In this document: piece after piece, positions 9,810 through 45,000 of the stretch
Numbering within the stretch: position 1 is the first letter of the stretch
Layout: every line of letters starts with the position of its first letter
Origin: Patellaria atrata CBS 101060
Lineage: Eukaryota
DNA: 64,000 nt
Reading direction: 5' to 3'
Assembly (NCBI GenBank): GCA_010093705.1
Contig: MU006092.1
Coordinates: forward strand, 1,516,111-1,580,110
Translations under genes and position numbers: made by a program
Notes under the pieces: generated by a model
What the model was told of the DNA's origin: nothing
Database searches by the model: none
The model's input: the letters and a program-made list of their open reading frames with translations, nothing else

Positions 9810-10558
9810 TCAGTCAGTCCAAACATGATCATCACCAAAAGTCCTGCGCCCTAGTCGACGCTCTACATCTCTCCATTCTCTACTCACCCAAGACATCCCA
9901 GTATTATGAGCGCCGGGGACTGGCTCTGTTTCATTGCCATTCTGTTTCCTTTTTCCCCTTCCTTTCTTACCACTGGTGAGTTCAGCGATTTCTTCAAAAG
10001 CTTGAATGTCAAATTGCGTTCCATAGGTCGTCCGACTGAGTTCTGATGCATGATTCTGAATATATAAATTTTTCTCCACAAGCTTGTTTTCGAGCGCTTT
10101 GAAGCGGATGTATTGGTCCCTAGTCAATTTCTTCAACTCTGGTTTGTCGAGCATGGAATTCATCCGGGGCGGACCACATATTTCTCGGGACAACTCCTCA
10201 TCCCCAAATCCGGCCAGCTCGGCTCGCAGACAGATCTTCCAGATCTCATTGGGCTCGATTTGGTAGGTTTCTCTGACCTTCTGGCTCCGCGAAGTGCTGC
10301 TGGCCATTTCATCGGAACCTGGCCCACCTATTTCAGACTTGTCAGCTCTAAAATCCCAGCAATATTGTTGTATTTTTTTATTCAACATATACTTCTTGGG
10401 TCCTTCGTTTGTCCATCATACCACCATCCGCGTTCCTTCATCCGAGCGATAAACTCCGCGCGAGATATCTCAGATACCTCAACAGGCTCTTCCACCTGTC
10501 GGAATACAGGCATCTCTTCGGTTGGGTCAGAGGAATGCTTTTGCTCTCTTCTGGCAGT
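9810..10558 (-). CDS. Hypothetical protein, at least 2 exons; 5' end unresolved
   Basis: An open frame from about 10558 (TARREQKHSS...ERGWWYDGQTKDPR) joins the 9810-10388 ORF in frame through an intron at about 10392-10329 (GTATAT...GCTGAC...ATAG). No homology recognised. Confidence 0.4.
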
Positions 10559-11211
10559 CTAAGGAGTGGCCAATGACTTCTCTTCAAGAAACGGATGATG
10601 ATGATGGTGAGTATAGGAAGCACTGATATGTAATCAGAATGTTTGTTTCCTTTGTCATGAGTGTTGACGCTCATACTACAAAGGTGTGCGCAGTCACAAG
10701 ACATCAAGCGTCCACATGTGTCATACCATGTCACACTCTCATGCATGTGAAGGCGAGAGATGAAAATTGACATAGTACCGTGATTTGGCAATGTCTCTTT
10801 CTGGATCAGCAGGGAGGTGTTATCCCAGACCACCTGGTATTCTAATTGATGCTATCGTGAACGAACAAGGGTAGGTATAGAAATCGTGGAACTTTTGGTC
10901 AATAAATCTTTGCTAACGAATGAACTTCGCAAACAGAGGTACTAAGATTGCCATGGAAATGGTCTCTCAGTAAATGTAACAAACTTTCTCACCGGCCCAT
11001 TATCTTCCCTTGGGTCATCATCCTTCTTCCATTCTACGTAATCGCACTCATCAGCCGTCTTGTCACACGTGTCTGGCTTCAGCATTGAATTAAGTAGGAA
11101 AAGGGGAAAACCAATATCTCCGATAGAGGCTCAAGCATCTAAATAACCACCTCCCCCAAATGTAGCGAAAAGCAAATAGCAAAACGGTTCCCACCTGCTC
11201 TTCAAACCCTG

Positions 11212-11232
11212 TTTTTTTTTTTTTTTTTTTTT
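11212..11232 (+). repeat. Poly(T) tract (about 21 nt)
   Basis: Homopolymer run seen directly. Confidence 0.9.
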
Positions 11233-12419
11233 CTGATCATATCACCCATATGGTAACAGATTGTTGGACAGATAATGGCTCCTCAAAGGGATGAACACGG
11301 CCAGTATCATTGCGGCGTGGTTTGTCCGTGATTCACGTTGACCCGATATTACGTTACCGGCCACATTATGAAAGAAGCTAGTAAAATATTGTATGGAGTG
11401 TTAAAGGCATAGTCATGGTGTTTGCCTGTTTACGTGGGTTCGGTGAGGGAAGTTATGGAGAACGTAAGAGTTTGTTGATGATCATTGGGTATGTATAAAG
11501 AACTTACGGGTATCGAATGACATGACTGTTCGGTCTTGTGGGTAGAGTCATGCTAACGAGATTTTGAATTGTAGTATGGTATCACAGGATCGAACGTATG
11601 GCCTAGTCTACTGCCTTTTTGGGGTTACATAGCCCGCGCAGCTCCCTCTTGAGAACTATCTACAACTCAAATTAACGCGGGTCTTAAACAGTCCATCGAG
11701 TGAAAGTGCTAACTTCGGGTGAATTCCTTGAAGACGCAACATTGCCAAACAAGGGAACAAGGGGGAACATAGTTATGAGCCATTTTGCTAGGAATTCCTC
11801 CCTCACCTTACCCCTACACCTCCATGGCGTTCACGCAGTGTCCACTTTCCAATGATGCTGGACTCACTGCCCGATATCATGGGGAACATCACCATGATTC
11901 CTGACTACTGCTTATCACCACCTGGTTATATTGATGATGGACATCATCACCTCCCATCTCCCATCTCGTACCTTTGATTTCCGGTTGGGCTTGTAAGCCC
12001 CACAAACCCCAAATAACACATGTCTCTCATCTAGGCACCACAAGCCCAAAACAATGAAAGCTGATACTGTGTAGTGGGGAAACCCTCTCTGTCCTGTTTC
12101 TCCAAGAATCTGTCAAACTTTGCTGCAACGGTGGAAGAGAACGTCGGGACTTTGTATATGAGCAGAGGCTCGTATCTGGTTCGTTTCGCAAGACAGGGTC
12201 AAGCGGATCATGATGGTATGCTGGTATGCTGCGAACTCCCGCACGTGGAGTTGAATTATAGGTATCATTCTTTTGTGCAGCGGTATAATGATGAATTCTC
12301 CGTCGACAGGATCTTTTCTACGGTTTCGTTTACATCATGATATCTGCTGGACTCTTAACGCCCTGCCGGAGCGCAGAACTAATCTCAAAGCTATTGTAAA
12401 TGGGGTTTACGAAGGAACT

Positions 12420-15400
12420 GATTTCTCGCTCTCGTGTCTATTTTCTTTTTTTCTTCACTCCATAATTCCTCTGTGATGATTGTGAGTAATGCTCCATTGT
12501 TGTACTCGCCATTATGTTATCATTTCAGCGTTTTTTTTATCATCATTATTCCTTGGTTATCCAGATTGATAATATATAGAACTTACTACGGAAGCACAAT
12601 TCAGTGCATTTCTATACAGCGCAAATCCGCGCAATCTTCAATTTTGCGGCGTGTCCGAGGACGATATTGCTACTTGATTCCAACACAGACTTATAAAGAG
12701 AGAACAAAGGATAGGAGCAACTAGAGAGAAGAGATCTTAATACACCCACCGACAGCTGATATGATCACTAGAGTCGCATGACCACGCCGCTCTCTAACAT
12801 ATCTGGTCATGTAAAGCCCTCCTTTGTTAGTCCTCGTCTACAGAACCTTCATCTCTCTCTCCTTAATTAGTGATGGAGACCTCAAGGGAAAAGTTCAAGT
12901 GTATTTAGTTCCGACTCTGTTTCTGTGCCCCTACTGTCTCGCAATCTTTTGGCTCCACTTTTTTGTCGCTCTTAATGAAGTTTGGTGATGGAGATCATTA
13001 CTTCATGTCGATGTTAGCATTCATCTAAAACATGTATTTGGGATCTGTTACGTTATCTAGCAATGATTGTGCGATCCCTAGGATACTGTCTGCTCTCGTG
13101 CCCGCCTATTGATCATATATTCTCTCGAAGACCGCAAATTTTCAGGAATACTATTTTAGCTCACATTCCCATGTATCTCTTAAACCACTGCTAAAGCTAC
13201 GGTCAATATGGAAGAAGAATGATTTAAATGGGAAGAGTTGAAAGGGGGAGTTGATTTTATACGCCAGCATCCTAACACATGGATCACTATATCAGCTGCA
13301 CGGATTATTATTATACCAAGGTTCGTAGCATCTGAGGGATAAGCCTTAGGATTGCCTCGTTACATGCGTACTGCACGTTGTCTTTTGCATGTCTTTGTTA
13401 TATCCAGGCGCCTATAAAACAACGTCTCGATGCTCAACATTTGTAGCTTCCACTAAACTTTTCTTCTAGCTATTCCCTCCAAGTTGGAAGCTGAAATCCT
13501 TCGGAGAGCTCCTATCGCAGAAAATTGTGGATTCAACCTTCTGCATGATTTTACCGAATCCAACGATTTGAGGAGAGTTTCTCCTTAAACTCTTCATTTT
13601 CTCTTAGATCTCCCGTTACTTTATGGCCCAGGTTGTTTGAGTGATGGATCCCTTAGAGGCACTATGATGAGGACAGTCATCATCTCGTAGTCTTGATCAC
13701 TTGCAGTTTTTGATTGATATGATTGTCTATTATATTCCAACCACCTATAGACCACTTTTCTATCGGTTCTTTTCTTCATTCGTTTCCTGCGCAAATACTC
13801 ATCCAATACGAGGAAATCCAGCTTGAAGGGCAATGATCTCCGCGAGCACGCCCGAGAATCTTCCTTATCCGGCTTATCAAAATAGATAATGGACCTTTAT
13901 GTGAACCGAAGAGGGAGAAAGTGGAGGGAAGAGACGGACTTAATATATCCTTGGATATTCCTTCCAAATAACGGTTTGCTGGGTTCCATGGGGTGAGTTG
14001 AGTGAGAAAGTAGGAAGACAGAGGCAAATAAGGAAGTTGATATACTTATGTAGTGCGGGAATGTACGTGTAAGGGTCATGGAACGTTTTTCTACAACTAT
14101 CATTTCTATCATTGTCGTTTAGTTCTTGTTCAATTTCCACTTTAACCCCTTTAGCGGGTAAAGTCGGACAACCCCTTTTGTTGTATTTATTGCGTTCTTT
14201 CGCCTTCCATTCCACACCAGCCTCTTAAGATAGTTCGGAGGTTAGGGATCAAAGGAGGTCGTGACGTTAATACTAACCAACATCATATTCTTATTCAAGC
14301 GATGCTGGTCAAAACCGCATATCTTCGTTTGTCTAAATACTCAAACCCCCTATTGTAAAGATGATCAGCATCACTATCTCACCAAGGACCTATCATACTG
14401 TTCATTTCAACCTCGTTCTTTTACCCTCAGTCCAGAGTGTCTGAAATCCACTTACCCTTCCAACGATAAAAGGTGTTAGTCGAGACTTAACAGGGGCAAT
14501 TTTACTCTTTCTTCATAAAATTAATAACCTTATGATGTCGACTTCAAGAAAAGGAGAGAGGAAGATAGGGGAGGTAGGAGTGTATATACCCTGCGTCCTC
14601 GGATTCAGTAAGACACCAGCTGAGTTTTGCGTCAGGAGTTCAGTGATGCATGACCCCTGAACATGTCCCTCGCAGTTGGTTCACGGCGCTGTTTTCTTGC
14701 CTTGCATAACTGATAAATACCCTTTAGGGCGATATATCTCAAACTCTTAACTTTCCACTTGGTCAACTTCTTTCGACTAGGAAGAAGGAGACCATTTGCG
14801 GAATGCCATTTGCCCTTCTCCCTCTGGGCTTCTGGTATAGTGCATAAGAGGATGAGATAAACGCATCTCATCGCCTTAAATTGAATTTGCACCTTTCCTT
14901 CCGCTCCTGCTCTTAGTACACTTAAGACTCTTGAACCTGTGTGGTGGTGGAAATCGTCGGGGTACTATTTCGATTTCAATAATTTCACTGCCACTACCTG
15001 TCACGGGTTAGACCCGATAGTTATAAGTGCCTTGGATGATCCAGCGGCTTAGTCAAACTATACTTTAGTAGAACAGCATATGCTGTCTCAACACTTTCTT
15101 TCCTTAAGTTGAAGCTTAAGCTTCATGTACATACAGCAATATACCTTTCAGTTTCCATCTGAGGTTGAGCCATGACACTACCCCATTCATTCCTTGGGCG
15201 TGACAATTATCCCCATTATGAAGGTCATATTATTGTGAGCACTCGATTCGAGAAGTAACTCCCTCCTTATCCTTCTTGACAGTTTTCTCCAGAATTGTCG
15301 TGAATCTTCATAAAAGGTTCCAGATCCGCTACCTCCACCTAAAACATTGTTATGACGGTGTTTAATTGTGAGGGTAAGAAAGAGAAGAAAGATGAGGTGC

Positions 15401-18400
15401 GATTTATACCAGGGCCCGACGTTGTGATGCCCATATGAACACGCAGTCTATGGCGTGGGACACTATGAGATCGTCTTGTCATCGTCCTTGGACCCCTTTC
15501 CCTCTGCGATTCATTGTCTCTTTGGCTCTTTTAAAGTGAAATTGTATGCTTCTTCGTCTGTATACTGTAACCCCTGCTTATCTAAGTTATGACTCCTCTC
15601 TTTCCAGAGACCATCCTCCGGCTTCAAGTGATTCCCCTTTTCCTCCCTCTTTCGGATTAGTAAACGAGACTGGATCAGTGATGACAGTTTATTTGAATGG
15701 TAATGGAAGCTACCTTAGGAGAGTACACATGATACTGGACTCTTAAGATAATTTCAAGCACTCATAGCGCTATGAGATAATAGTCAAACGTCACTGATCA
15801 TTTCACGCCCCTTTTTCTGCCTCCTTTTCCGCCCCTTTTCCCTTTAGAGTAACCCCAACTCGTCCTCAAATCCTCTGGTGCTTCCCAGACGTAGACAGGC
15901 GAGTAATAGTTTTGCTCTGTAAACAATTCGCTTCAGAATCGCTGTAAAACAGCTGGTAGCAGGAGCCCGGAGAACGTGCTGCGGCGTTGTGGAGATAAAA
16001 CAAGAAGGAAGGGAAGGAGGAGTTTATATTGCTTCAAACTGCTGAACTTGTTATTCACTCCCTGCGAATTGGCTTGGGTATCAAGAAGGTTCGGGCTAGA
16101 CCACTTCAAAGCTCACCTGATTCTGGTGGTGAATGGTAGCACGATTCTCACCCTTTCACTGTTGATAGAGGTCACCATCTTCTGCTCGCCCTGGCTTATT
16201 CTTTCAACTTTTGGTTTTGCGACACTTCCTCCAAGCCAAGAGAATAAGCAATAGGGGTGTGGACAAGGCTTCTATTAAAGTCAGGGTGTCAGAGGGTATC
16301 TCCCACAAAGGAATACAATGATGGATGATATATTGATCCCATTATACACAGGGGAATATTGCTGTGATATTGTAATTGGAACAAGAGAAAATCAAGAAGG
16401 GGATTGAAGCCTACAGAGGGTGTTAATATATCTTCGCATACTAAGGCTAATACTGTGTGGAAGTATCGCTGGGATGGACATCGCAATTGCTAAAGCATCA
16501 GTTAATCCAGATTATCGAATTATAATATTGAATATTCTAATCTTTGGACAGTAGTGATTTTCATCAGTGTATTTCGCGATTCAATATTCAACTTTTCTTT
16601 ACGATTCCTTCCCAGATCAGCTAGAATCGAAGCAAGTACCATAAGACATTAGGACGTTTTACGGATGAAGAAGTCGAATCTGTCAGAATATCTATATGGC
16701 AGGATTTTTTTCCAAGCAGAGTCTGTTTAGCCGATCCGGTAATCTCACGATAACACTACTCTCAAGAAAAATGAGAGTAAAAGAGAGAGACAATGGAAGA
16801 AGGAGGGTTATATACCCGTTACAGCATTACTTCCACGTGCAAAGTACCGTCAGCTATGTCAGGGGAACGGACGTTACAATGCATGAAGATTCTTACACTT
16901 GAACGATAATTGTGAGATAAACTGGATCTGCAGGTGCACTGAATATATCGCTTGATTCTCAAAAGAGAGGTTCTATCTAGCTGTTATATACTGTAGGTGT
17001 GTACTAAAACGGACGGAACAGTATGAAATCTATGTCTCAGAAAATAACGAAAATAGCGCTAACACAAGAACTAAAAGGTAGTGTTATGTTAGTTTAGAAA
17101 CCCTAGGTTACGACGATACCGTAATTGTGGTGGTATAAGCGACTAGCTCACTACCCCTGGTTACCACAAGAATCAACACCCCGATAGCTCCACCATCTAA
17201 CAATAATGATGATCTCCAGCCCCTTAAGGGTGATATTGATCATCATCATTTCTTCAATCTTTCGTCCTCCTCGTTGCCCTTAAAAGTTATATTTAGACCC
17301 AGGAAGAATGATCCAATCACACTACACTCTCCTGAATCGGAAGGCTTACCACCACGCCCAGGAGACGCGGGAAAAATCGGCTTGTGGATGAGTTAGACAC
17401 CTTTCCACAACAAGGTAAAACAATGTATTATAGAAAAGAGGACGAAGAGGATAGAGGAGAGGGGCCTATATAGCTATCGTCCCCACGATCACGTGGAGAG
17501 CTCAAAGCTGACATGGTATGTTAGAAACACAGGGACTGGTGATACTTGTAAAGCACTCTCAAATTATTTGATTAAACTGAAATCTAAATACCTCATAGTC
17601 CCTGAACTGCTGGCAATGAAGATTATCACCACTGACTCTTTCTTCCGCATACAATATCCTTTGACCTTTGGCAAAGGATTCAGGAGCTTAGTCACAGGAT
17701 TTTGCCAATATCATGGAGGTTGTCGCGATTGTAAAAAGTCGGGCTGATGCCTCTGTTAATTCTCCTGGGCGAAAATGACGAAACTTAATGAAGAAAAAAG
17801 AGAATAGAAAGGGAAAAAGGAAATAGAAAAGTGATTATATCACCAATAATGCTAATATAACCCAAGTCCTCCGTTAGAGCTCGCGAATCGTGATACTCAA
17901 AATCTTACCCGCTTGGATTATTGGGATGACGAATAATATATCCTGTGCTCGGTGATGATGATCAGTTTTGCCCATTTCTCCTTATCACTTGGTCTCCCCC
18001 GCAAAACATTCCTGATTTAAAGCAAGACAGCTCGGCGCAGCCTCTCTAGCATATCCACACCCATGAAGGCGCGAATCTGCTTGTTTTCGTATGCAGGACG
18101 CGAGTACAATAGATTGCCTTGAGGATTTCCCGAATGTTTGACTTAGCCCCTGAAGTTCTCTGGGGCTAGTAGCAGACCGCCGTTATGTTTTGAAGAAAGA
18201 GAAGGAAGGGAAAAGGAAAGGAGTAGTAGATTTATATACCTGCAGAATCCAGCGTCTCTCCACCTAGGTAAAGCGCGAAGCTGACCTATATCGGGAGAAA
18301 AGCGTCCCGTGATATCTCTAAGTCCTGCGGACTCGGACAATCGTGATGGTGAGTATAGTCCAGAGTGGCTATTGATCATAATCACCCCCATTACCCTTTT

Positions 18401-18600
18401 TCACGCGACTTACCCTGCTAACTCCCTCTGTATATCCACCCTTCGCAACGGACGTAATTTAACTCATTAGTGTATGGTGGATATAACAATATGGCTTTTA
18501 CTTCTCGTGGCGATATACCGTCTACAGTGGTATTACGATCTTGAGAAAAAATAAAAGTGGAGAGGGAGGTAAGGGGTTGGGTTTTATTTATTATCCCTCT
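12420..18600 (-). ncRNA. Array of at least 11 diverged TATA / pyrimidine-tract / fold-back units; candidate structured ncRNA cluster
   Basis: Minus-strand TATA-like boxes at about 12740, 13258, 13944, 14585, 15405, 16025, 16811, 17470, 17837, 18235 and 18588. Each is followed by a 30-45 nt CT tract, and most have a complementary GA tract downstream. Shared words between units; no conserved ORF. The repeat structure is seen directly; the ncRNA call is inference. Confidence 0.45.
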
Positions 18601-18604
18601 TAAC

Positions 18605-20733
18605 TCACACATATATAGGCGCAGTCGTGTTAGGAGATCTCCGTCTTGTGATACCTAGGATTTGTCTACCTCGGACAATCAAGGTCAGCCTCTCCACCGG
18701 TCTCAACTCTGGGCCCAGGGTTGTAACTGCCACGCGTCCGACTTGTCCATCATTCACCCTCACACCTCCGACCATTATCTTGACATTCTTCATCATACGT
18801 GCGCGTTCCAGACCATTAGGAGTTGTGCCGTTGTCGGGAAGGTCAAGATGAGGGTTGTCGCGAGTGAGAGAGGAGACGTAACCGAAAATATCGGGATCGA
18901 GTGTGTGCTTGCGGAGTCAGAGGGAAATAGCTGCTGCTATGAAGAGGATTGTGCAGGAGACGAAGTCGACGGCAATCCAGGACCAGGATATGGCGTAGTG
19001 AGGTTCGTACTCAGCGCCCTTAAGATGAATGTACTCTACCCACGGGTTATGGACAGAGGGTTCAAAGTTGGAAACCATATCTTTGCGAATAGATGCCAAA
19101 AATAAGGAATTGATTGTTCTTGCTAGGAAGCGCTGTTGGAAGTTCGAGACCGCTATTTCAGCCGTAGTAGGACGAACAAATGGCTCCCTGTTCATGTTTT
19201 CTCTTAAGTTCTAAGCAAGAGCCCCTCCAATGTCAGTCTGACGATTGATGCTGGTTTGTGGTCCATCGTAGAGAAGCATGCTGCTGTAGAATGCTTGAGC
19301 AAAGCTTCTATCCTGACATGGGACCGCCGATAGAGTATCATCCTTTTGGGATTTATTGTCTATATATCTCATTTTACGAGCTTGGCAACCTTCAGTTGAA
19401 CAAGACACCTGAATATCCACGTGAATTTCTGCAATGTTGCAGACAATTTTAGCTCTACCATTAGTACTACTATAATAGTTCATCGACTGCTCAGGAATCC
19501 AGCGAACCCAGAGTTCGAATTCCGGAAGTGAGACTCCCATTGGATCTTTAGGCGTCCGTTTCGTTCCGACCGTCGCATTGATGCTCACACTTTGAGTCGA
19601 AAGGGTGGCGCTCGGAAATGCATCATACTCTAAGGCTATAGGAGCGCCACAAGAGACGGAAAAATAACGAGTAGTTGTCTTATACTTCCAATAGGACGGA
19701 TTGGCCAAGAGCCCTCGCTTCCTGTCGCACCAAATTTCTTGGGAGTCGGACCTTCCAAATTCTGACCAATATCAGACGTATAGGGGTTTTTTGACGACTT
19801 CGAAACATTTATCCATCCATCTTTTCCTGGATGAGCAGGTTCAATAGCAGTATCCGCAGCAAGAGCGATTACGTCCTCCTTAGGATGAACGACATAATAG
19901 AGATCGGGTATAATCATGCCTCCATTGTTGTCAATCCCAGGAGTATTTGCTGACCTCTCGTCAGCAGCTTCCACGGCAATATGCTGATGTACAAGAAGCT
20001 CGTGATAGAGCGCCTTGAGATTCCCCAGGTGCTATGGAAGGCCGGGGCTCATCAAGTGCATCTATGAAAATGAATGTATAGTTTGGCGGGTTCATCGCAA
20101 CATACATATTACGGAAGGAGTCCGAATTTACAAATTGATATTCCAGAGTTGTTGCTTGACTGTCAAGATAGTAGAAGGACCAAAGTACTATAAGCGCCCA
20201 GGACAGCGTCCCAAAAACTCTGAGTGACCAGATGAGCTTGACCGTACTAGGAAGACTGATGCTCCTCTGAAGCTGCTCTAGTTCAATCACAGAAGCTCCT
20301 TTTTGTGCTTTGTATAGTGCGTATCTTCGAGCGGCAGTATTCATTATAGTAACGAAAATGATAGTAAAAACGGTGGTCATCTGATGATAACACAATAAAG
20401 CAGAGTCGTCCTCACCTGACTGTTGAACTTGACCAATTGCTTGGTCAACTCGTTAACTATATCGATGAACGTTCCCCGATGTTTATCTTGATGCCACGCC
20501 ACAATACACAGACCTGTCTTCGTAGCAAGAAGGATCAGGACGAGTAAAAGGGCAGCATCATAACGAGAAAGGATTATGGCCGTGGTCCTGTCTGGTTGAA
20601 GAGGAATTGGCGTTTGCGGCCACGCTTTCGCTGAAGGAGTGGAGTTGAGGGGTCTTTGAGATTCATCTTCGCTAGACCCATGAGATACTGGAATCTCAGT
20701 GAGCTTCACAATAGTATCTTTCTCACTCGCCAT
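18605..20733 (-). pseudogene. Disrupted gene for a fungal multi-TM hypothetical protein
   Basis: ATG at 20733 and a probable short intron at 20415-20381. Frameshifts near 20030 and 19710; in-frame stops at 19211-19213 (TAG) and 18917-18919 (TGA). The frame continues past the last stop into a family-typical C-terminus (PDIFGYVSSLTRDNP...GLERARMMKNVKIMVG...VGRVAV). Confidence 0.75.
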
Positions 20734-21709
20734 CGGAACGCGTTTCAAATATTGGCAGAAAGGGAATGTTGAGTTAATGTAATAATGACGGAGAATCCAG
20801 AAGTTCTGGACAGGGAATATTTGATAACATCCAAACCTGGACTTCCTCATAACTATCTATGTCCTGATCCTTCTCAGGTGCGCCCCGTAGACGAACACCA
20901 GCTACCTCAAAAGCCAACATATTGTCGCGCCTAAGCTTCTGGCTAGTATCTCTAACCTATTATAGAGATTTTAAACGCGTATGGGGAAATATAAAGACTG
21001 AAGAGTTGTCAAAGACCAAATGTGGAATAGGAGTGGGAGGTTGTTTTCGTGGCGAACGTGAAGATCACATCCAGTGGCATAACATCGCACGAGCCATTGT
21101 TGTGGCAGAATCTGGACTCACCTCGAATAAATTGTAATTGCAAACAAGGATAAATTCATTGGTTGACGCAGTGTGATTCCGGATTTGTTGTTTCGTTGTT
21201 CGCTCTGGCCGAATAGACAGAATGCTGCCCCAAAAGTCGATTGCGTTTCTACTGGAAGGGTGTATAATTTCAATTGAGCCCGAGAAGAACTATGGAAAAG
21301 ACGTCTTCATTTCCATTTTCCTTCGGTCTGTATCGCGCGAAACTACATGATCTCGACCGCATAGGAATCTGATCATGTCAGGTCAGCCACTCATCGGTTC
21401 GCATCGCTGACGCCGATCATAGAGTTCCAGTATTTGCTGCGTGATGCCGTGAGCGCGAAGTGGCAGAGGGTAAAAAGATCCTTCCCATTTAGGTAGTTAT
21501 ATTATCGTCTAGATTTCTTCCTATCAGTTTCAACCCTAAGTCTGGCAATAGAACAACTTTCTAAGAACCATCACACCATCTCCCAAACTCCTGGTAATGT
21601 GTTCCTCATAGACGTTGCTCTATAATTAGTCATTGAACGGATCACCCTAGTTGTATAGAGAAGTCTGAACGTCGAGAGCTGTATATTCCAAAGAACGTAC
21701 AATGTGAGC

Positions 21710-44882: not shown

Positions 44883-45000
44883 AGTCCTGTGACGCAGTGG
44901 TTAGCGTGTCGTTCTTATATTTACGTTCCTCGCTTGCGAGGTTGTATGTATGACCATTGTGGTAATGCGAAAGTCGCGGGTTCAAGTCCCGCCAGGACTA
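44883..45000 (+). tRNA. tRNA-Ile (anticodon UAU) with 45-nt intron at 44920-44964
   Basis: Acceptor stem AGTCCTG/CAGGACT plus discriminator A; D arm ACGC/GCGT; CT-TAT-A anticodon loop followed by the intron; T arm GCGGG-TTCAAGT-CCCGC. Mature length 73 nt, with a T-run terminator about 10 nt downstream. Confidence 0.95.

What the first reader, a model, noticed from the sequence alone, without database searches (positions are those of the whole stretch)
12420..18600. Head-to-tail array of at least 11 diverged TATA-headed fold-back units: candidate undescribed structured ncRNA or miRNA-like cluster
Seen: about 6 kb with no credible ORF in an otherwise gene-dense window. On the minus strand the same layout recurs with spacings of about 355-820 nt: TATA-like box, then a 30-45 nt pyrimidine tract, then 60-250 nt often containing small hairpins, then a purine tract complementary to that unit's pyrimidine tract, often followed by TGATCA. 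Boxes lie at about 12740, 13258, 13944, 14585, 15405, 16025, 16811, 17470, 17837, 18235 and 18588; weaker extra copies lie near 16427, 16988, 14042, 11775 and 11115. All point the same way. Primary sequence is highly diverged while layout and pairing persist. Inference: this pattern suggests selection on RNA structure rather than a recent tandem repeat or a decayed transposon. The units could be individually promoted ncRNA genes or a polycistronic hairpin precursor cut by Dicer/RNase III. Caveat: a Pol II start 30 or more nt past each TATA would omit part of the 5' arm.
Basis: partly seen in the sequence, partly recalled or inferred. Interest (0 to 1): 0.9.

Follow-up and report, generated by a model that had tools for sequence, protein, structure and literature searches.

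The report
Tandem array of fungal promoter-like units
A 6-kb gene-free stretch of a fungal genome holds about a dozen same-direction copies of a textbook gene start signal with no gene behind them, which is odd and worth an RNA experiment, but the proposed hairpin-RNA reading does not hold up.

Summary
The array is real. A TATA box followed by a pyrimidine tract recurs 10-13 times on the minus strand between 12693 and 18617. It occurs nowhere else in the window or in 219 kb of other fungal DNA. Six successive intervals are 367-399 bp once a high-copy insertion is subtracted. A purine-rich stretch and a TGATCA element recur at about +160 to +274.

The fold-back reading fails. Units fold no better than shuffles. 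Each pyrimidine tract pairs with other units' purine stretches as well as with its own. Rfam finds nothing.

The TATA, CT tract and CA sit 37-51 nt apart, as in the TATA-type Pol II core promoter mapped in Aspergillus nidulans. The "5' arm" would therefore lie upstream of the transcript.

I found no ORF, coding signal or conserved peptide. Residual homology survives only between adjacent upstream units, and outside the putative transcribed body.

Best reading (about 0.5): a birth-and-death tandem array of short, independently promoted non-coding Pol II units. The main rival is a decayed tandem duplication. No RNA data could be obtained. Two dispersed high-copy elements, one introner-like, are inserted in the two longest of the intervals.

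The parts
12693..18617 (-). Whole array: 10-13 head-to-tail units, each with a TATA box, a pyrimidine tract, a variable body, a purine-rich stretch, a TGATCA element and a spacer
18542..18617 (-). Unit 1 promoter-like module. It is atypical: TATATATG, then an AATAAA-rich stretch, then a CT tract at 18577-18542
18189..18238 (-). Unit 2 module: TATATAAA plus a 43-nt CT tract. CA lies at offsets 46 and 51
17786..17839 (-). Unit 3 module: TATAAT plus a 50-nt CT tract. CA lies at offset 49
17430..17472 (-). Unit 4 module: TATATAGG plus a 36-nt CT tract. CA lies at offset 47
16763..16814 (-). Unit 5 module: TATATAAC plus a 46-nt CT tract. CA lies at offset 41
16378..16430 (-). Unit 6 module (weak): ATATATTAAC plus a 26-nt CT tract
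15989..16028 (-). Unit 7 module: TATAAACT plus a 38-nt CT tract. CA lies at offsets 37 and 39
15367..15408 (-). Unit 8 module: TATAAATC plus a 36-nt CT tract. CA lies at offsets 38 and 40
14544..14588 (-). Unit 9 module: TATATACA plus a 39-nt CT tract. CA lies at offset 51
14000..14045 (-). Extra weak module: GTATATCAAC plus a 37-nt CT tract, 95 nt upstream of unit 10
13903..13947 (-). Unit 10 module: TATATTAA plus a 37-nt CT tract. CA lies at offsets 44 and 46
13226..13261 (-). Unit 11 module (weaker): TATAAAAT plus a 25-nt CT tract
12693..12745 (-). Unit 12 module (weak): GTATTAAG plus a 28-nt CT tract
18373..18378 (.). TGATCA element of unit 1 (+235), in the context GGTGATTATGATCAATAGCC
17959..17964 (.). 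TGATCA element of unit 2 (+274), followed by TCATCACC
17237..17242 (.). TGATCA element of unit 4 (+230). It is part of a 13-nt-arm inverted repeat at 17202-17250
15795..15800 (.). TGATCA element of unit 7 (+228). It follows the strongest purine tract, 15847-15801
14362..14367 (.). TGATCA element of unit 9 (+221)
13694..13699 (.). TGATCA element of unit 10 (+248)
18308..18421 (-). 'Tail' of unit 1 (purine stretch, TGATCA, TATCACG). It is homologous, at about 62% identity over 114 nt, to the tail of unit 2 at 17889-18005
   Evidence: z 5.3-7.8
14998..15134 (-). Inserted high-copy element bounded by GTATGT...CTAAC...CAG (introner-like), inside unit 8
16909..17202 (.). Second inserted high-copy dispersed segment, inside unit 4. 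Its family and orientation are unresolved

Best explanation
The locus is a single-copy tandem array of about a dozen paralogous short Pol II transcription units that encode no protein.

Each unit begins with a strong TATA-type core promoter of the kind mapped in filamentous ascomycetes. A TATA box is followed by a sense-strand CT tract, which ends at a CA initiator 37-51 nt after the TATA. Transcription would start at the 3' edge of the CT tract on the minus strand and run through a fast-evolving body of about 110-180 nt. It would probably end near a purine/A-rich stretch and a TGATCA element at about +160 to +274.

The array grew by tandem duplication of a unit of about 385 bp. The most recent growth was at the 18.6-kb end. 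Constraint kept the promoter and inter-unit module while the bodies diverged.

Shown here: the layout, its statistical exceptionality, its single-copy status, the absence of coding and structure signals, and residual homology confined to the inter-unit part.

Inferred: that the promoters fire, where the transcripts end, and that the products (or the act of transcription) matter.
For: 1. Non-random array. TATA plus CT occurs at 8-9 strict sites on one strand in 4.3 kb and nowhere else in the window. The expectation is 0.01. Only 1 site occurs in 219 kb of other fungal loci.
2. TATA and tract are coupled. 10 of 13 array tracts have a TATA upstream, against 0 of 45 elsewhere.
3. Promoter geometry.
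   - In the 8 best units the first CA after the tract lies 37-51 nt after the first T of the TATA, and +8..+40 is 84-94% pyrimidine.
   - Passages of PMC4046813 report for A. nidulans: TATA mostly 30-45 bp upstream of the TSS with a peak at -45, a TC-rich sense strand from -50 to +25, and CA at 49% of tight TSSs.
4. No coding signal. There are no conserved short ORFs and no codon-usage signal (best array ORF 8.0 bits, against 27-96 bits for the Pfam-supported or long ORFs). 8 of 8 correctly specified ATG ORFs are absent from the protein collection.
5. A second positional module. The purine peak lies at +157..+238 in 9 of 12 units. TGATCA lies at +221..+274 in 6 of 12, P = 1.8e-7.
6. Paralogy with uneven constraint.
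   - Adjacent units 1-2 align at about 62% over 114 nt in the tail (z 5.3-7.8).
   - Bodies at +50..+185 give mean z 0.19 over 21 pairs, against 1.08 for tails.
   - Intact TATA boxes persist in units whose tails have lost all detectable homology. This is hard to reconcile with equal neutral decay (inference).
7. Units are single copy in the genomic DNA runs, at depth about 324 and 487, and there is no RIP signature.
8. An introner-like element sits in sense orientation inside unit 8. This is a weak hint of minus-strand transcription.
Against: - No transcript evidence exists. No RNA run was available, and the two runs found behave as DNA.
- No relative genome could be searched, so conservation of the array is unknown.
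- None of the other pyrimidine tracts in the window carries a TATA in front (0 of 45), and the strict scan finds no site outside the array. The motif is therefore not shown to be this organism's usual promoter.
- Pyrimidine tracts survive transitions, so their persistence is partly expected under neutrality.
- TATATA followed by A-rich and U-rich sequence is also the layout of yeast-type 3'-end signals (recalled, not tested). In unit 1 the TATA is followed by AATAAA-rich sequence.
- Most unit pairs show no homology at all. 'Paralogous units' is demonstrated only for the first three or four.
- The TGATCA position window was chosen after looking at the data.
Confidence: 0.5

Rival explanations
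1. The array is a decayed, functionless tandem duplication, a minisatellite-like array with a unit of about 385 bp. Only mutation-tolerant low-complexity features remain recognisable: the pyrimidine tract, a TA-rich box and a purine stretch.
For: - Six intervals are regular at 367-399 bp after an insertion is subtracted.
- Almost all pairwise similarity is lost.
- Transitions preserve pyrimidine or purine status (inference).
- Distal units are weaker and irregular.
- Two mobile elements have inserted without visible cost.
- The surrounding 12 kb holds only orphan or unsupported ORFs.
Against: - TATA consensus is retained in 10 of 13 tracts at a fixed distance. This includes units whose flanks are no longer alignable. 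A 6-8-nt mixed A/T motif is not protected by transitions.
- Homology is uneven, with tails conserved more than bodies.
- TGATCA is kept at a constant offset in 6 of 12 units.
- TRF finds no array.
Confidence: 0.25
2. The array acts at the DNA level rather than through RNA products. The repeated modules would bind factors through the palindromic TGATCA/GGTGAT..ATCACC element and the CT/GA tracts. They might act as an enhancer, a boundary or a factor sink, or be H-DNA-prone tracts.
For: - The conserved part is the inter-unit module, not the putative transcript body.
- TGATCA is palindromic with partly palindromic flanks.
- Perfect short inverted repeats are about 2.5 times enriched, 11 against 4.2 expected.
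Against: - No known factor site was matched by any tool.
- The strict strand polarity of TATA then CT then CA fits a directional promoter better than a symmetric binding site.
- 6-mer enrichments are modest. The control maximum is about 7 of 12 units, the same as the best array 6-mers.
Confidence: 0.1
3. Each unit is a structured fold-back ncRNA, or part of a polycistronic miRNA-like precursor, in which the pyrimidine tract pairs with the downstream purine tract and is cut by Dicer or RNase III.
For: - MFE folds of units 18577-18370 and 16026-15793 do pair the CT tract with the purine stretch.
- Small perfect hairpins are modestly enriched.
- Unit 1's own pairing ranks first of 13.
Against: - The mean minus-strand z over 11 units is about -0.4, and none is below -2.1.
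- The tool's own shuffles give -1.01, 0.18 and -1.80.
- A 100-nt z-scan gives mean -0.13, with 10 of 248 windows below -2 and no consistent position.
- Own-unit pairing is no better than cross-unit pairing.
- There is no Rfam hit.
- The CT arm lies between the TATA and the predicted start.
Confidence: 0.05
4. The array is the remnant of a tandem LTR-internal-LTR array of a miniature LTR retroelement (TRIM-like). The TGATCA would be the LTR 5' end, the purine stretch the polypurine tract, and the TATA the U3 promoter.
For: - Unit size is 370-400 bp.
- A purine stretch lies just upstream of a TG-initial element in 6 of 12 units.
- A TATA lies inside the putative LTR.
Against: - I saw no TG...CA termini and no tRNA-complementary primer-binding site after the CT tract on reading the sequence. 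No terminal repeats were reported.
- Units are single copy in the DNA runs.
- The purine stretch is separated from TGATCA by several nt and is degenerate.
- The polypurine-tract and LTR rules are recalled, not tested against a library.
Confidence: 0.07

Closest known systems
TATA-type Pol II core promoter of filamentous ascomycetes (A. nidulans TSS map, PMC4046813; passages read)
   Same: The TATA lies about 30-45 nt upstream of the start, the sense strand is TC-rich up to the start, and there is a CA initiator. The array units show a TATA, 84-94% pyrimidine, and CA at 37-51 nt.
   Different: Here 10-13 such promoters stand head to tail every 370-820 bp with no ORF behind any of them. None of the window's other pyrimidine tracts has a TATA in front (0 of 45).
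Clusters of independently transcribed small ncRNA genes (snoRNA/snRNA genes with their own TATA promoters)
   Same: Both are short non-coding units, each with its own upstream promoter, with bodies unrelated in sequence.
   Different: There is no Rfam match even at E up to 10. No convincing C/D or H/ACA box arrangement was seen. There is no excess structure.
miRNA-like or polycistronic hairpin precursors
   Same: The arrangement is head to tail, and CT and purine stretches can pair in MFE folds.
   Different: Stability does not exceed shuffles, the arms are not unit-specific, and the 5' arm probably lies outside the transcript.
Tandemly duplicated spacer promoters of rDNA intergenic spacers (recalled)
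   Same: Repeated promoter copies face one way without coding sequence between them.
   Different: Those are Pol I promoters inside the multicopy rDNA. This array is single copy, has no rRNA and has Pol II-type TATA boxes.
TRIM / solo-LTR tandem arrays (recalled)
   Same: Unit length, an internal TATA, and a purine stretch before a TG-initial element.
   Different: There are no LTR termini, primer-binding site or dispersed copies.
Introner-like elements of Dothideomycetes (PMC4457414, passages read). This applies to the insert at 14998-15134 only.
   Same: The element is bounded by GT...AG and has a CTAAC branch site. The summed contig depth over the bin that holds it is about 84-88 times that of the flanks. 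The host is apparently a Dothideomycete.
   Different: It sits in sequence with no ORF across the junction. The fold is not unusually stable (z -1.31). Family membership could not be tested without the genome.

Membership tests
Ascomycete TATA-type Pol II core promoter | TATA box about 30-45 nt upstream of the start site | tested here: met
   In the 8 best units the first CA after the tract lies 37-51 nt after the first T of the TATA. The reference geometry comes from PMC4046813 passages. This is a sequence-level test only.
Ascomycete TATA-type Pol II core promoter | Pyrimidine-rich sense strand between the TATA and the start, with a CA initiator | tested here: met
   +8..+40 is 84-94% pyrimidine in the 8 best units and 75-84% in 4 weaker ones. 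CA is present at the tract's 3' edge in 12 of 13.
Ascomycete TATA-type Pol II core promoter | Transcription actually initiates there | not testable with these tools
   No RNA holder was listed, and the runs that were laid behave as DNA.
miRNA-like / fold-back hairpin precursor | Fold more stable than dinucleotide shuffles | tested here: not met
   z ranges from -2.06 to +0.86 over 11 units. The tool's own values are -1.01, 0.18 and -1.80. The scan mean is -0.13.
miRNA-like / fold-back hairpin precursor | Arms specifically complementary within a unit, or showing covariation | tested here: not met
   Own-unit duplex ranks are 1, 9, 4, 3, 12, 7, 2, 1, 6, 13, 8, 8, 10 of 13. Units are not alignable, so no covariation test is possible.
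miRNA-like / fold-back hairpin precursor | Small RNAs map to the arms | not testable with these tools
   No small-RNA or RNA run is available.
Any Rfam family (snoRNA, snRNA, miRNA and others) | Covariance-model score at or above the gathering threshold | tested here: not met
   There are 0 hits in the array at gathering threshold. At E up to 10 there are 4 weak hits between 14.9 and 26.1 bits, all far below threshold.
Box C/D snoRNA | C box RUGAUGA and D box CUGA 60-150 nt apart with a terminal stem | tested here: inconclusive
   Motif positions were listed. One C...D pair (16566/16501) was inspected by eye and has no convincing terminal stem. No dedicated snoRNA finder or rRNA target test was run.
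Dispersed transposon family (MITE/LTR/TRIM) | Multiple copies elsewhere in the genome | tested here: not met
   Units are covered at single-copy depth, about 324 and 487. Only 14998-15134 and about 16909-17202 are at high depth. Old, diverged copies below 95% identity would be missed.
Dispersed transposon family (MITE/LTR/TRIM) | Terminal inverted or long terminal repeats, target-site duplication, primer-binding site | tested here: not met
   None was found by the repeat finder or on reading the sequence after the CT tracts.
Tandem repeat / satellite | Detectable similarity between successive units | tested here: inconclusive
   TRF finds none and blastn finds none at E up to 0.1. Smith-Waterman detects homology for units 1-2 (z 5.3-7.8) and weakly for units 1-3 and 1-4. 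Spacing is regular for six intervals.
Introner-like element (insert 14998-15134) | Canonical 5' splice site, branch site and 3' splice site at the exact ends of a multicopy element | tested here: met
   GTATGT...TCTAAC...CAG spans 15134-14998. Loose ends of other copies occur at 14998/14999 in both runs. A unique contig resumes at 15135 in X2. The summed depth of the bin is 84-88 times that of the flanks. The upper boundary rests on one run.

The most novel reading that the evidence does not exclude
The array is a living birth-and-death cassette array. A conserved module of about 250 bp (3'-end element, upstream elements, TATA/CT/CA core promoter) is repeatedly duplicated. Each copy drives a different hypervariable non-coding RNA of about 110-180 nt. 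That would be a fungal locus type in which promoter and terminator are conserved while the RNA bodies diversify, in the manner of guide-RNA or piRNA-type gene families rather than structured RNAs. No such family is in Rfam. Three full-text searches on CT-rich/TATA promoters, tandem arrays and fungal snoRNA clusters did not bring up any description of one.
Probability: 0.2. Interest if true: 0.8.

Novelty: new variant of a known kind. Interest (0 to 1): 0.5.

Why it matters
If the promoters fire, this would be a compact natural array of a dozen strong, near-consensus core promoters. Each would make a short non-coding RNA with an unconstrained body. That would bear on how ncRNA gene families are born and turn over in fungi. 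It would also bear on transcriptional interference between closely stacked promoters.

If the promoters are silent, the locus shows how a tandem duplication can decay until only low-complexity and TATA features remain. Those leftovers can mislead structure-based readings. That is a useful caution for sequence-only scans.

The introner-like insert adds a candidate lineage to the short list of fungi carrying such elements.

Tried and rejected
- RNA evidence: the look-up of sequencing runs listed no RNA holder. The two runs listed (X1 and X2, one sample, one study) behave as DNA with uniform depth. This says nothing about expression.
- Own genome: none is held.
- Synteny:
  - The flanking ORF 19211-19771 has no relative in metagenome contigs.
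  - The DUF3405 neighbour gave 15 loci at 34-47% identity. They hold no array (1 TATA+CT site in 219 kb) and show no similarity to it.
  - Searching the long contigs behind those loci was not possible.
- Small ORFs and micropeptides: the first ATGs give unrelated peptides of 1-15 aa.
- Multi-exon gene: intron-like signal triplets number 12 against 8.1 expected. No ORF crosses the putative intron junction.
- RIP-mutated repeat: the indices are ordinary.
- Retrocopy at 11205-11560 (TGATCAG followed by A21): no target-site duplication and no similarity to the units, best z 3.0.
- Reb1-like GGGTAA, GATA and other 6-mers: no convincing enrichment.
- TIR search on the two high-copy inserts: nothing.
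- Protein look-ups of array ORFs: 8 correctly specified ORFs are absent from the collection, and 2 + strand references were mis-specified by me.
- Literature: four full-text searches on promoter arrays, fungal snoRNA clusters and the species name found nothing describing such an array. Only listings were seen, apart from the passages of PMC4046813 and PMC4457414.
- The 100-nt z-scan used a shuffle that was only approximately dinucleotide-preserving. Its own check failed.

Full report
CONTEXT

The window is fungal. Long ORFs carry DUF3405, SLATT_fungal, DUF7492, GH47, ferric reductase and MFS domains. GC content is about 45% and there is no RIP signature.

The flanking ORF 9813-10415(-) has one database match. 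It is a 100% identical hypothetical protein that its source names as from Patellaria atrata CBS 101060, a Dothideomycete. The window therefore most likely comes from that species or a near-identical strain.

Yes for the core layout.

- A strict scan gives 0 sites on the + strand and 9 distinct sites on the - strand, all within 13947-18238.
- The IUPAC pattern TATAWA-N4-Y28 with up to 3 mismatches gives 18 overlapping matches at 8 sites, all in the array. The expectation from 100 shuffles is 0.01.
- 13 of the 29 minus-strand pyrimidine tracts in the window lie in 12693-18577.
- 10 of these 13 have a TATA within 20 nt upstream, against 0 of 45 tracts elsewhere on either strand (Fisher 5e-9).
- 219 kb of other fungal DNA (L001-L015) holds a single such site.

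Intervals between boxes are 375, 399, 367, 658, 387, 399, 620, 820, 546, 95, 689 and 513 nt.

The DNA runs show two high-copy segments inside the array, at about 14998-15134 and about 16909-17202. Subtracting the second from the 658-nt interval gives roughly 370-390 nt. Six consecutive intervals therefore cluster at about 367-399 nt.

The purine tract and TGATCA are positional features, but weaker ones. The best 40-nt purine stretch (72-92% purine) lies at +157..+238 in 9 of 12 units. TGATCA lies at +221..+274 in 6 of 12, against 0.23 expected, P = 1.8e-7, with the position window chosen post hoc.

WHAT IS NOT REAL

The claimed unit-specific complementarity is not there. In a 13 x 13 RNAduplex matrix of each CT tract against each unit's downstream sequence, the own-unit rank is 1, 9, 4, 3, 12, 7, 2, 1, 6, 13, 8, 8, 10. 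Any CT tract pairs with any purine stretch.

Units do not fold unusually well.
- Units taken from the CT tract to TGATCA fold no better than dinucleotide shuffles. Minus-strand z is -0.78, -0.70, -1.54, 0.14, -0.01, 0.38, 0.40, -0.25, -2.06, 0.86 and -0.70. Plus-strand z ranges from -2.35 to +1.50.
- The fold tool's own 200 shuffles give -1.01, 0.18 and -1.80 for three units.
- A 100-nt sliding scan of the minus strand gives mean z -0.13, with 10 of 248 windows below -2 at inconsistent positions. Its shuffle was only approximately dinucleotide-preserving.

Rfam gives no hit at gathering threshold and only four far-sub-threshold hits at E up to 10.

Perfect short inverted repeats are modestly enriched, 11 against 4.2 expected for stems of at least 8 bp. 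This is the only residue of the 'small hairpins' remark.

WHAT THE UNITS LOOK LIKE

In the eight best units +8..+40 is 84-94% pyrimidine. The first CA after the tract lies 37-51 nt after the first T of the TATA.

Passages of the A. nidulans TSS study PMC4046813 describe the same geometry:
- TATAA is mostly 30-45 bp upstream of tight TSSs, with a peak at -45.
- The sense strand is TC-rich from -50 to +25.
- CA spans 49% of tight TSSs.

Each 'head' is therefore a near-consensus ascomycete TATA-type core promoter pointing along the minus strand. Most of the CT tract would lie upstream of the transcript.

Behind the promoters I found no coding potential.
- The first ATGs give unrelated peptides of 1-15 aa.
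- The best array ORF scores 8.0 bits in a codon-usage test, in which the Pfam-supported or long ORFs score 27-96.
- 8 correctly specified ATG ORFs are absent from the protein collection.
- Intron-like signal triplets are not enriched, 12 against 8.1 expected.

ARE THE UNITS RELATED?

TRF and blastn at E up to 0.1 see nothing. Smith-Waterman with shuffles detects homology between adjacent upstream units only. The tails of units 1 and 2 (18421-18308 and 18005-17889) align at about 62% over 114 nt, with z 5.3-7.8. Units 1-3 and 1-4 are marginal, z about 3.

For the seven upstream units, the tails (+186 to the next TATA) give mean z 1.08. The bodies (+50..+185) give mean z 0.19 over 21 pairs.

A MAFFT alignment of -150..+60 suggests shared GTATCAC (about -85), YCTRAYA (about -60) and TCAGCT (about -50) in a subset of units. 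This alignment is suggestive only.

Two conclusions follow. At least the upstream end of the array arose by tandem duplication. What is retained is the inter-unit and promoter module rather than the putative transcript body. Good TATA boxes persist in units 7-10, whose flanks have lost all detectable similarity. I read this as constraint, because transitions protect a pyrimidine tract but not a TATA box (inference).

COPY NUMBER AND INSERTS

The two runs that hold the stretch behave as genomic DNA, with flat depth of about 324 and 487. The units are single copy at 95% identity or more.

The bin 15001-15400 has 84-88 times the flank depth. The bins 16601-17400 have about 19-33 times the flank depth. 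These are summed contig depths, not copy counts.

The first insert is bounded exactly by GTATGT...TCTAAC...CAG (15134-14998, minus strand). Loose ends of other copies fall at 14998/14999 in both runs, and a unique contig resumes at 15135 in X2. This matches the description of introner-like elements of Dothideomycetes (PMC4457414, passages). It lies in the same orientation as the promoters. No ORF crosses the junction, and its fold is unremarkable (z -1.31).

The second insert is unresolved. No TIRs were found. A possible + strand GTGAGA...CTAAC...CAG reading at 16912-17219 has z -0.22.

EXPLANATION AND RIVALS

The best-supported reading (0.5) is a birth-and-death tandem array of short, independently promoted, non-coding Pol II units. 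In it the promoter and inter-unit module is conserved and the bodies are free to diverge. The 3' ends are inferred to lie near the purine/A-rich stretch and TGATCA. Nothing about actual transcription is shown.

Rivals:
- A functionless decayed tandem duplication (0.25).
- A DNA-level factor-binding or structural array (0.1).
- A TRIM-like LTR remnant (0.07).

A further caveat applies to the best reading. TATATA followed by A-rich and U-rich sequence also resembles yeast-type 3'-end signals (recalled). In unit 1 the TATA is followed by AATAAA-rich sequence, so a terminator reading of the 'heads' is not excluded.

COMPARISON AND NOVELTY

The heads match a known promoter type. The array as a whole matches no Rfam family, no recognisable transposon architecture, and nothing that four full-text searches brought up.

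I rate it a new variant of a known kind (tandemly duplicated Pol II promoter or short non-coding units), with interest 0.5. It is real, statistically striking and cheaply testable. It comes from a single genome, has no expression or conservation data, and its headline structural interpretation is refuted in silico.

Noticed in passing
window 14998-15134 (-): A 137-nt element is bounded by GTATGT...TCTAAC...CAG. The summed DNA contig depth over the bin that holds it is about 84-88 times that of its flanks. It is a candidate introner-like element in what appears to be a Dothideomycete.
   Followed up: partly
window ~16909-17202: A second dispersed high-copy segment has bins at about 19-33 times flank depth. 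DNA contigs break at it. No TIRs were found. A + strand intron-like reading (GTGAGA at 16912, CTAAC at 17196, CAG at 17219) is possible but unproven.
   Followed up: partly
window 44883-45000 (+): Rfam calls a tRNA (51.7 bits) spanning 118 nt, so it presumably contains an intron. ARAGORN in its default mode reports nothing in the window.
   Followed up: no
window 11205-11253 (-): GGGTGATATGATCAG, resembling the array's TGATCA element, is followed directly by an A21 run. DNA contigs break there. No target-site duplication or unit similarity was found, so a retrocopy is not supported.
   Followed up: yes
window 18917-20856 (-): A chain of four or five consecutive ORFs (97-186 codons) in shifting frames has a mild coding signal. 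The one ORF queried (19214-19771) has no relative in the protein collection and no relative in metagenome contigs, and none of the ORFs has a Pfam hit. It may be an orphan gene or a pseudogene directly upstream of the array.
   Followed up: partly
window 9810-10512 (-): The gene downstream of the array is a species-restricted orphan. Its only database hit is the 100% identical 212-aa hypothetical protein.
   Followed up: yes
window 18431-18487: A perfect 10-bp stem with a 35-nt loop sits inside unit 1's body. It is the longest perfect local hairpin in the array.
   Followed up: no
window 17202-17250: A 13-nt-arm inverted repeat (AATAATGATGATC / GATCATCATCATT) links the TGATCA element of unit 4 to the edge of the second high-copy insert.
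   Followed up: no
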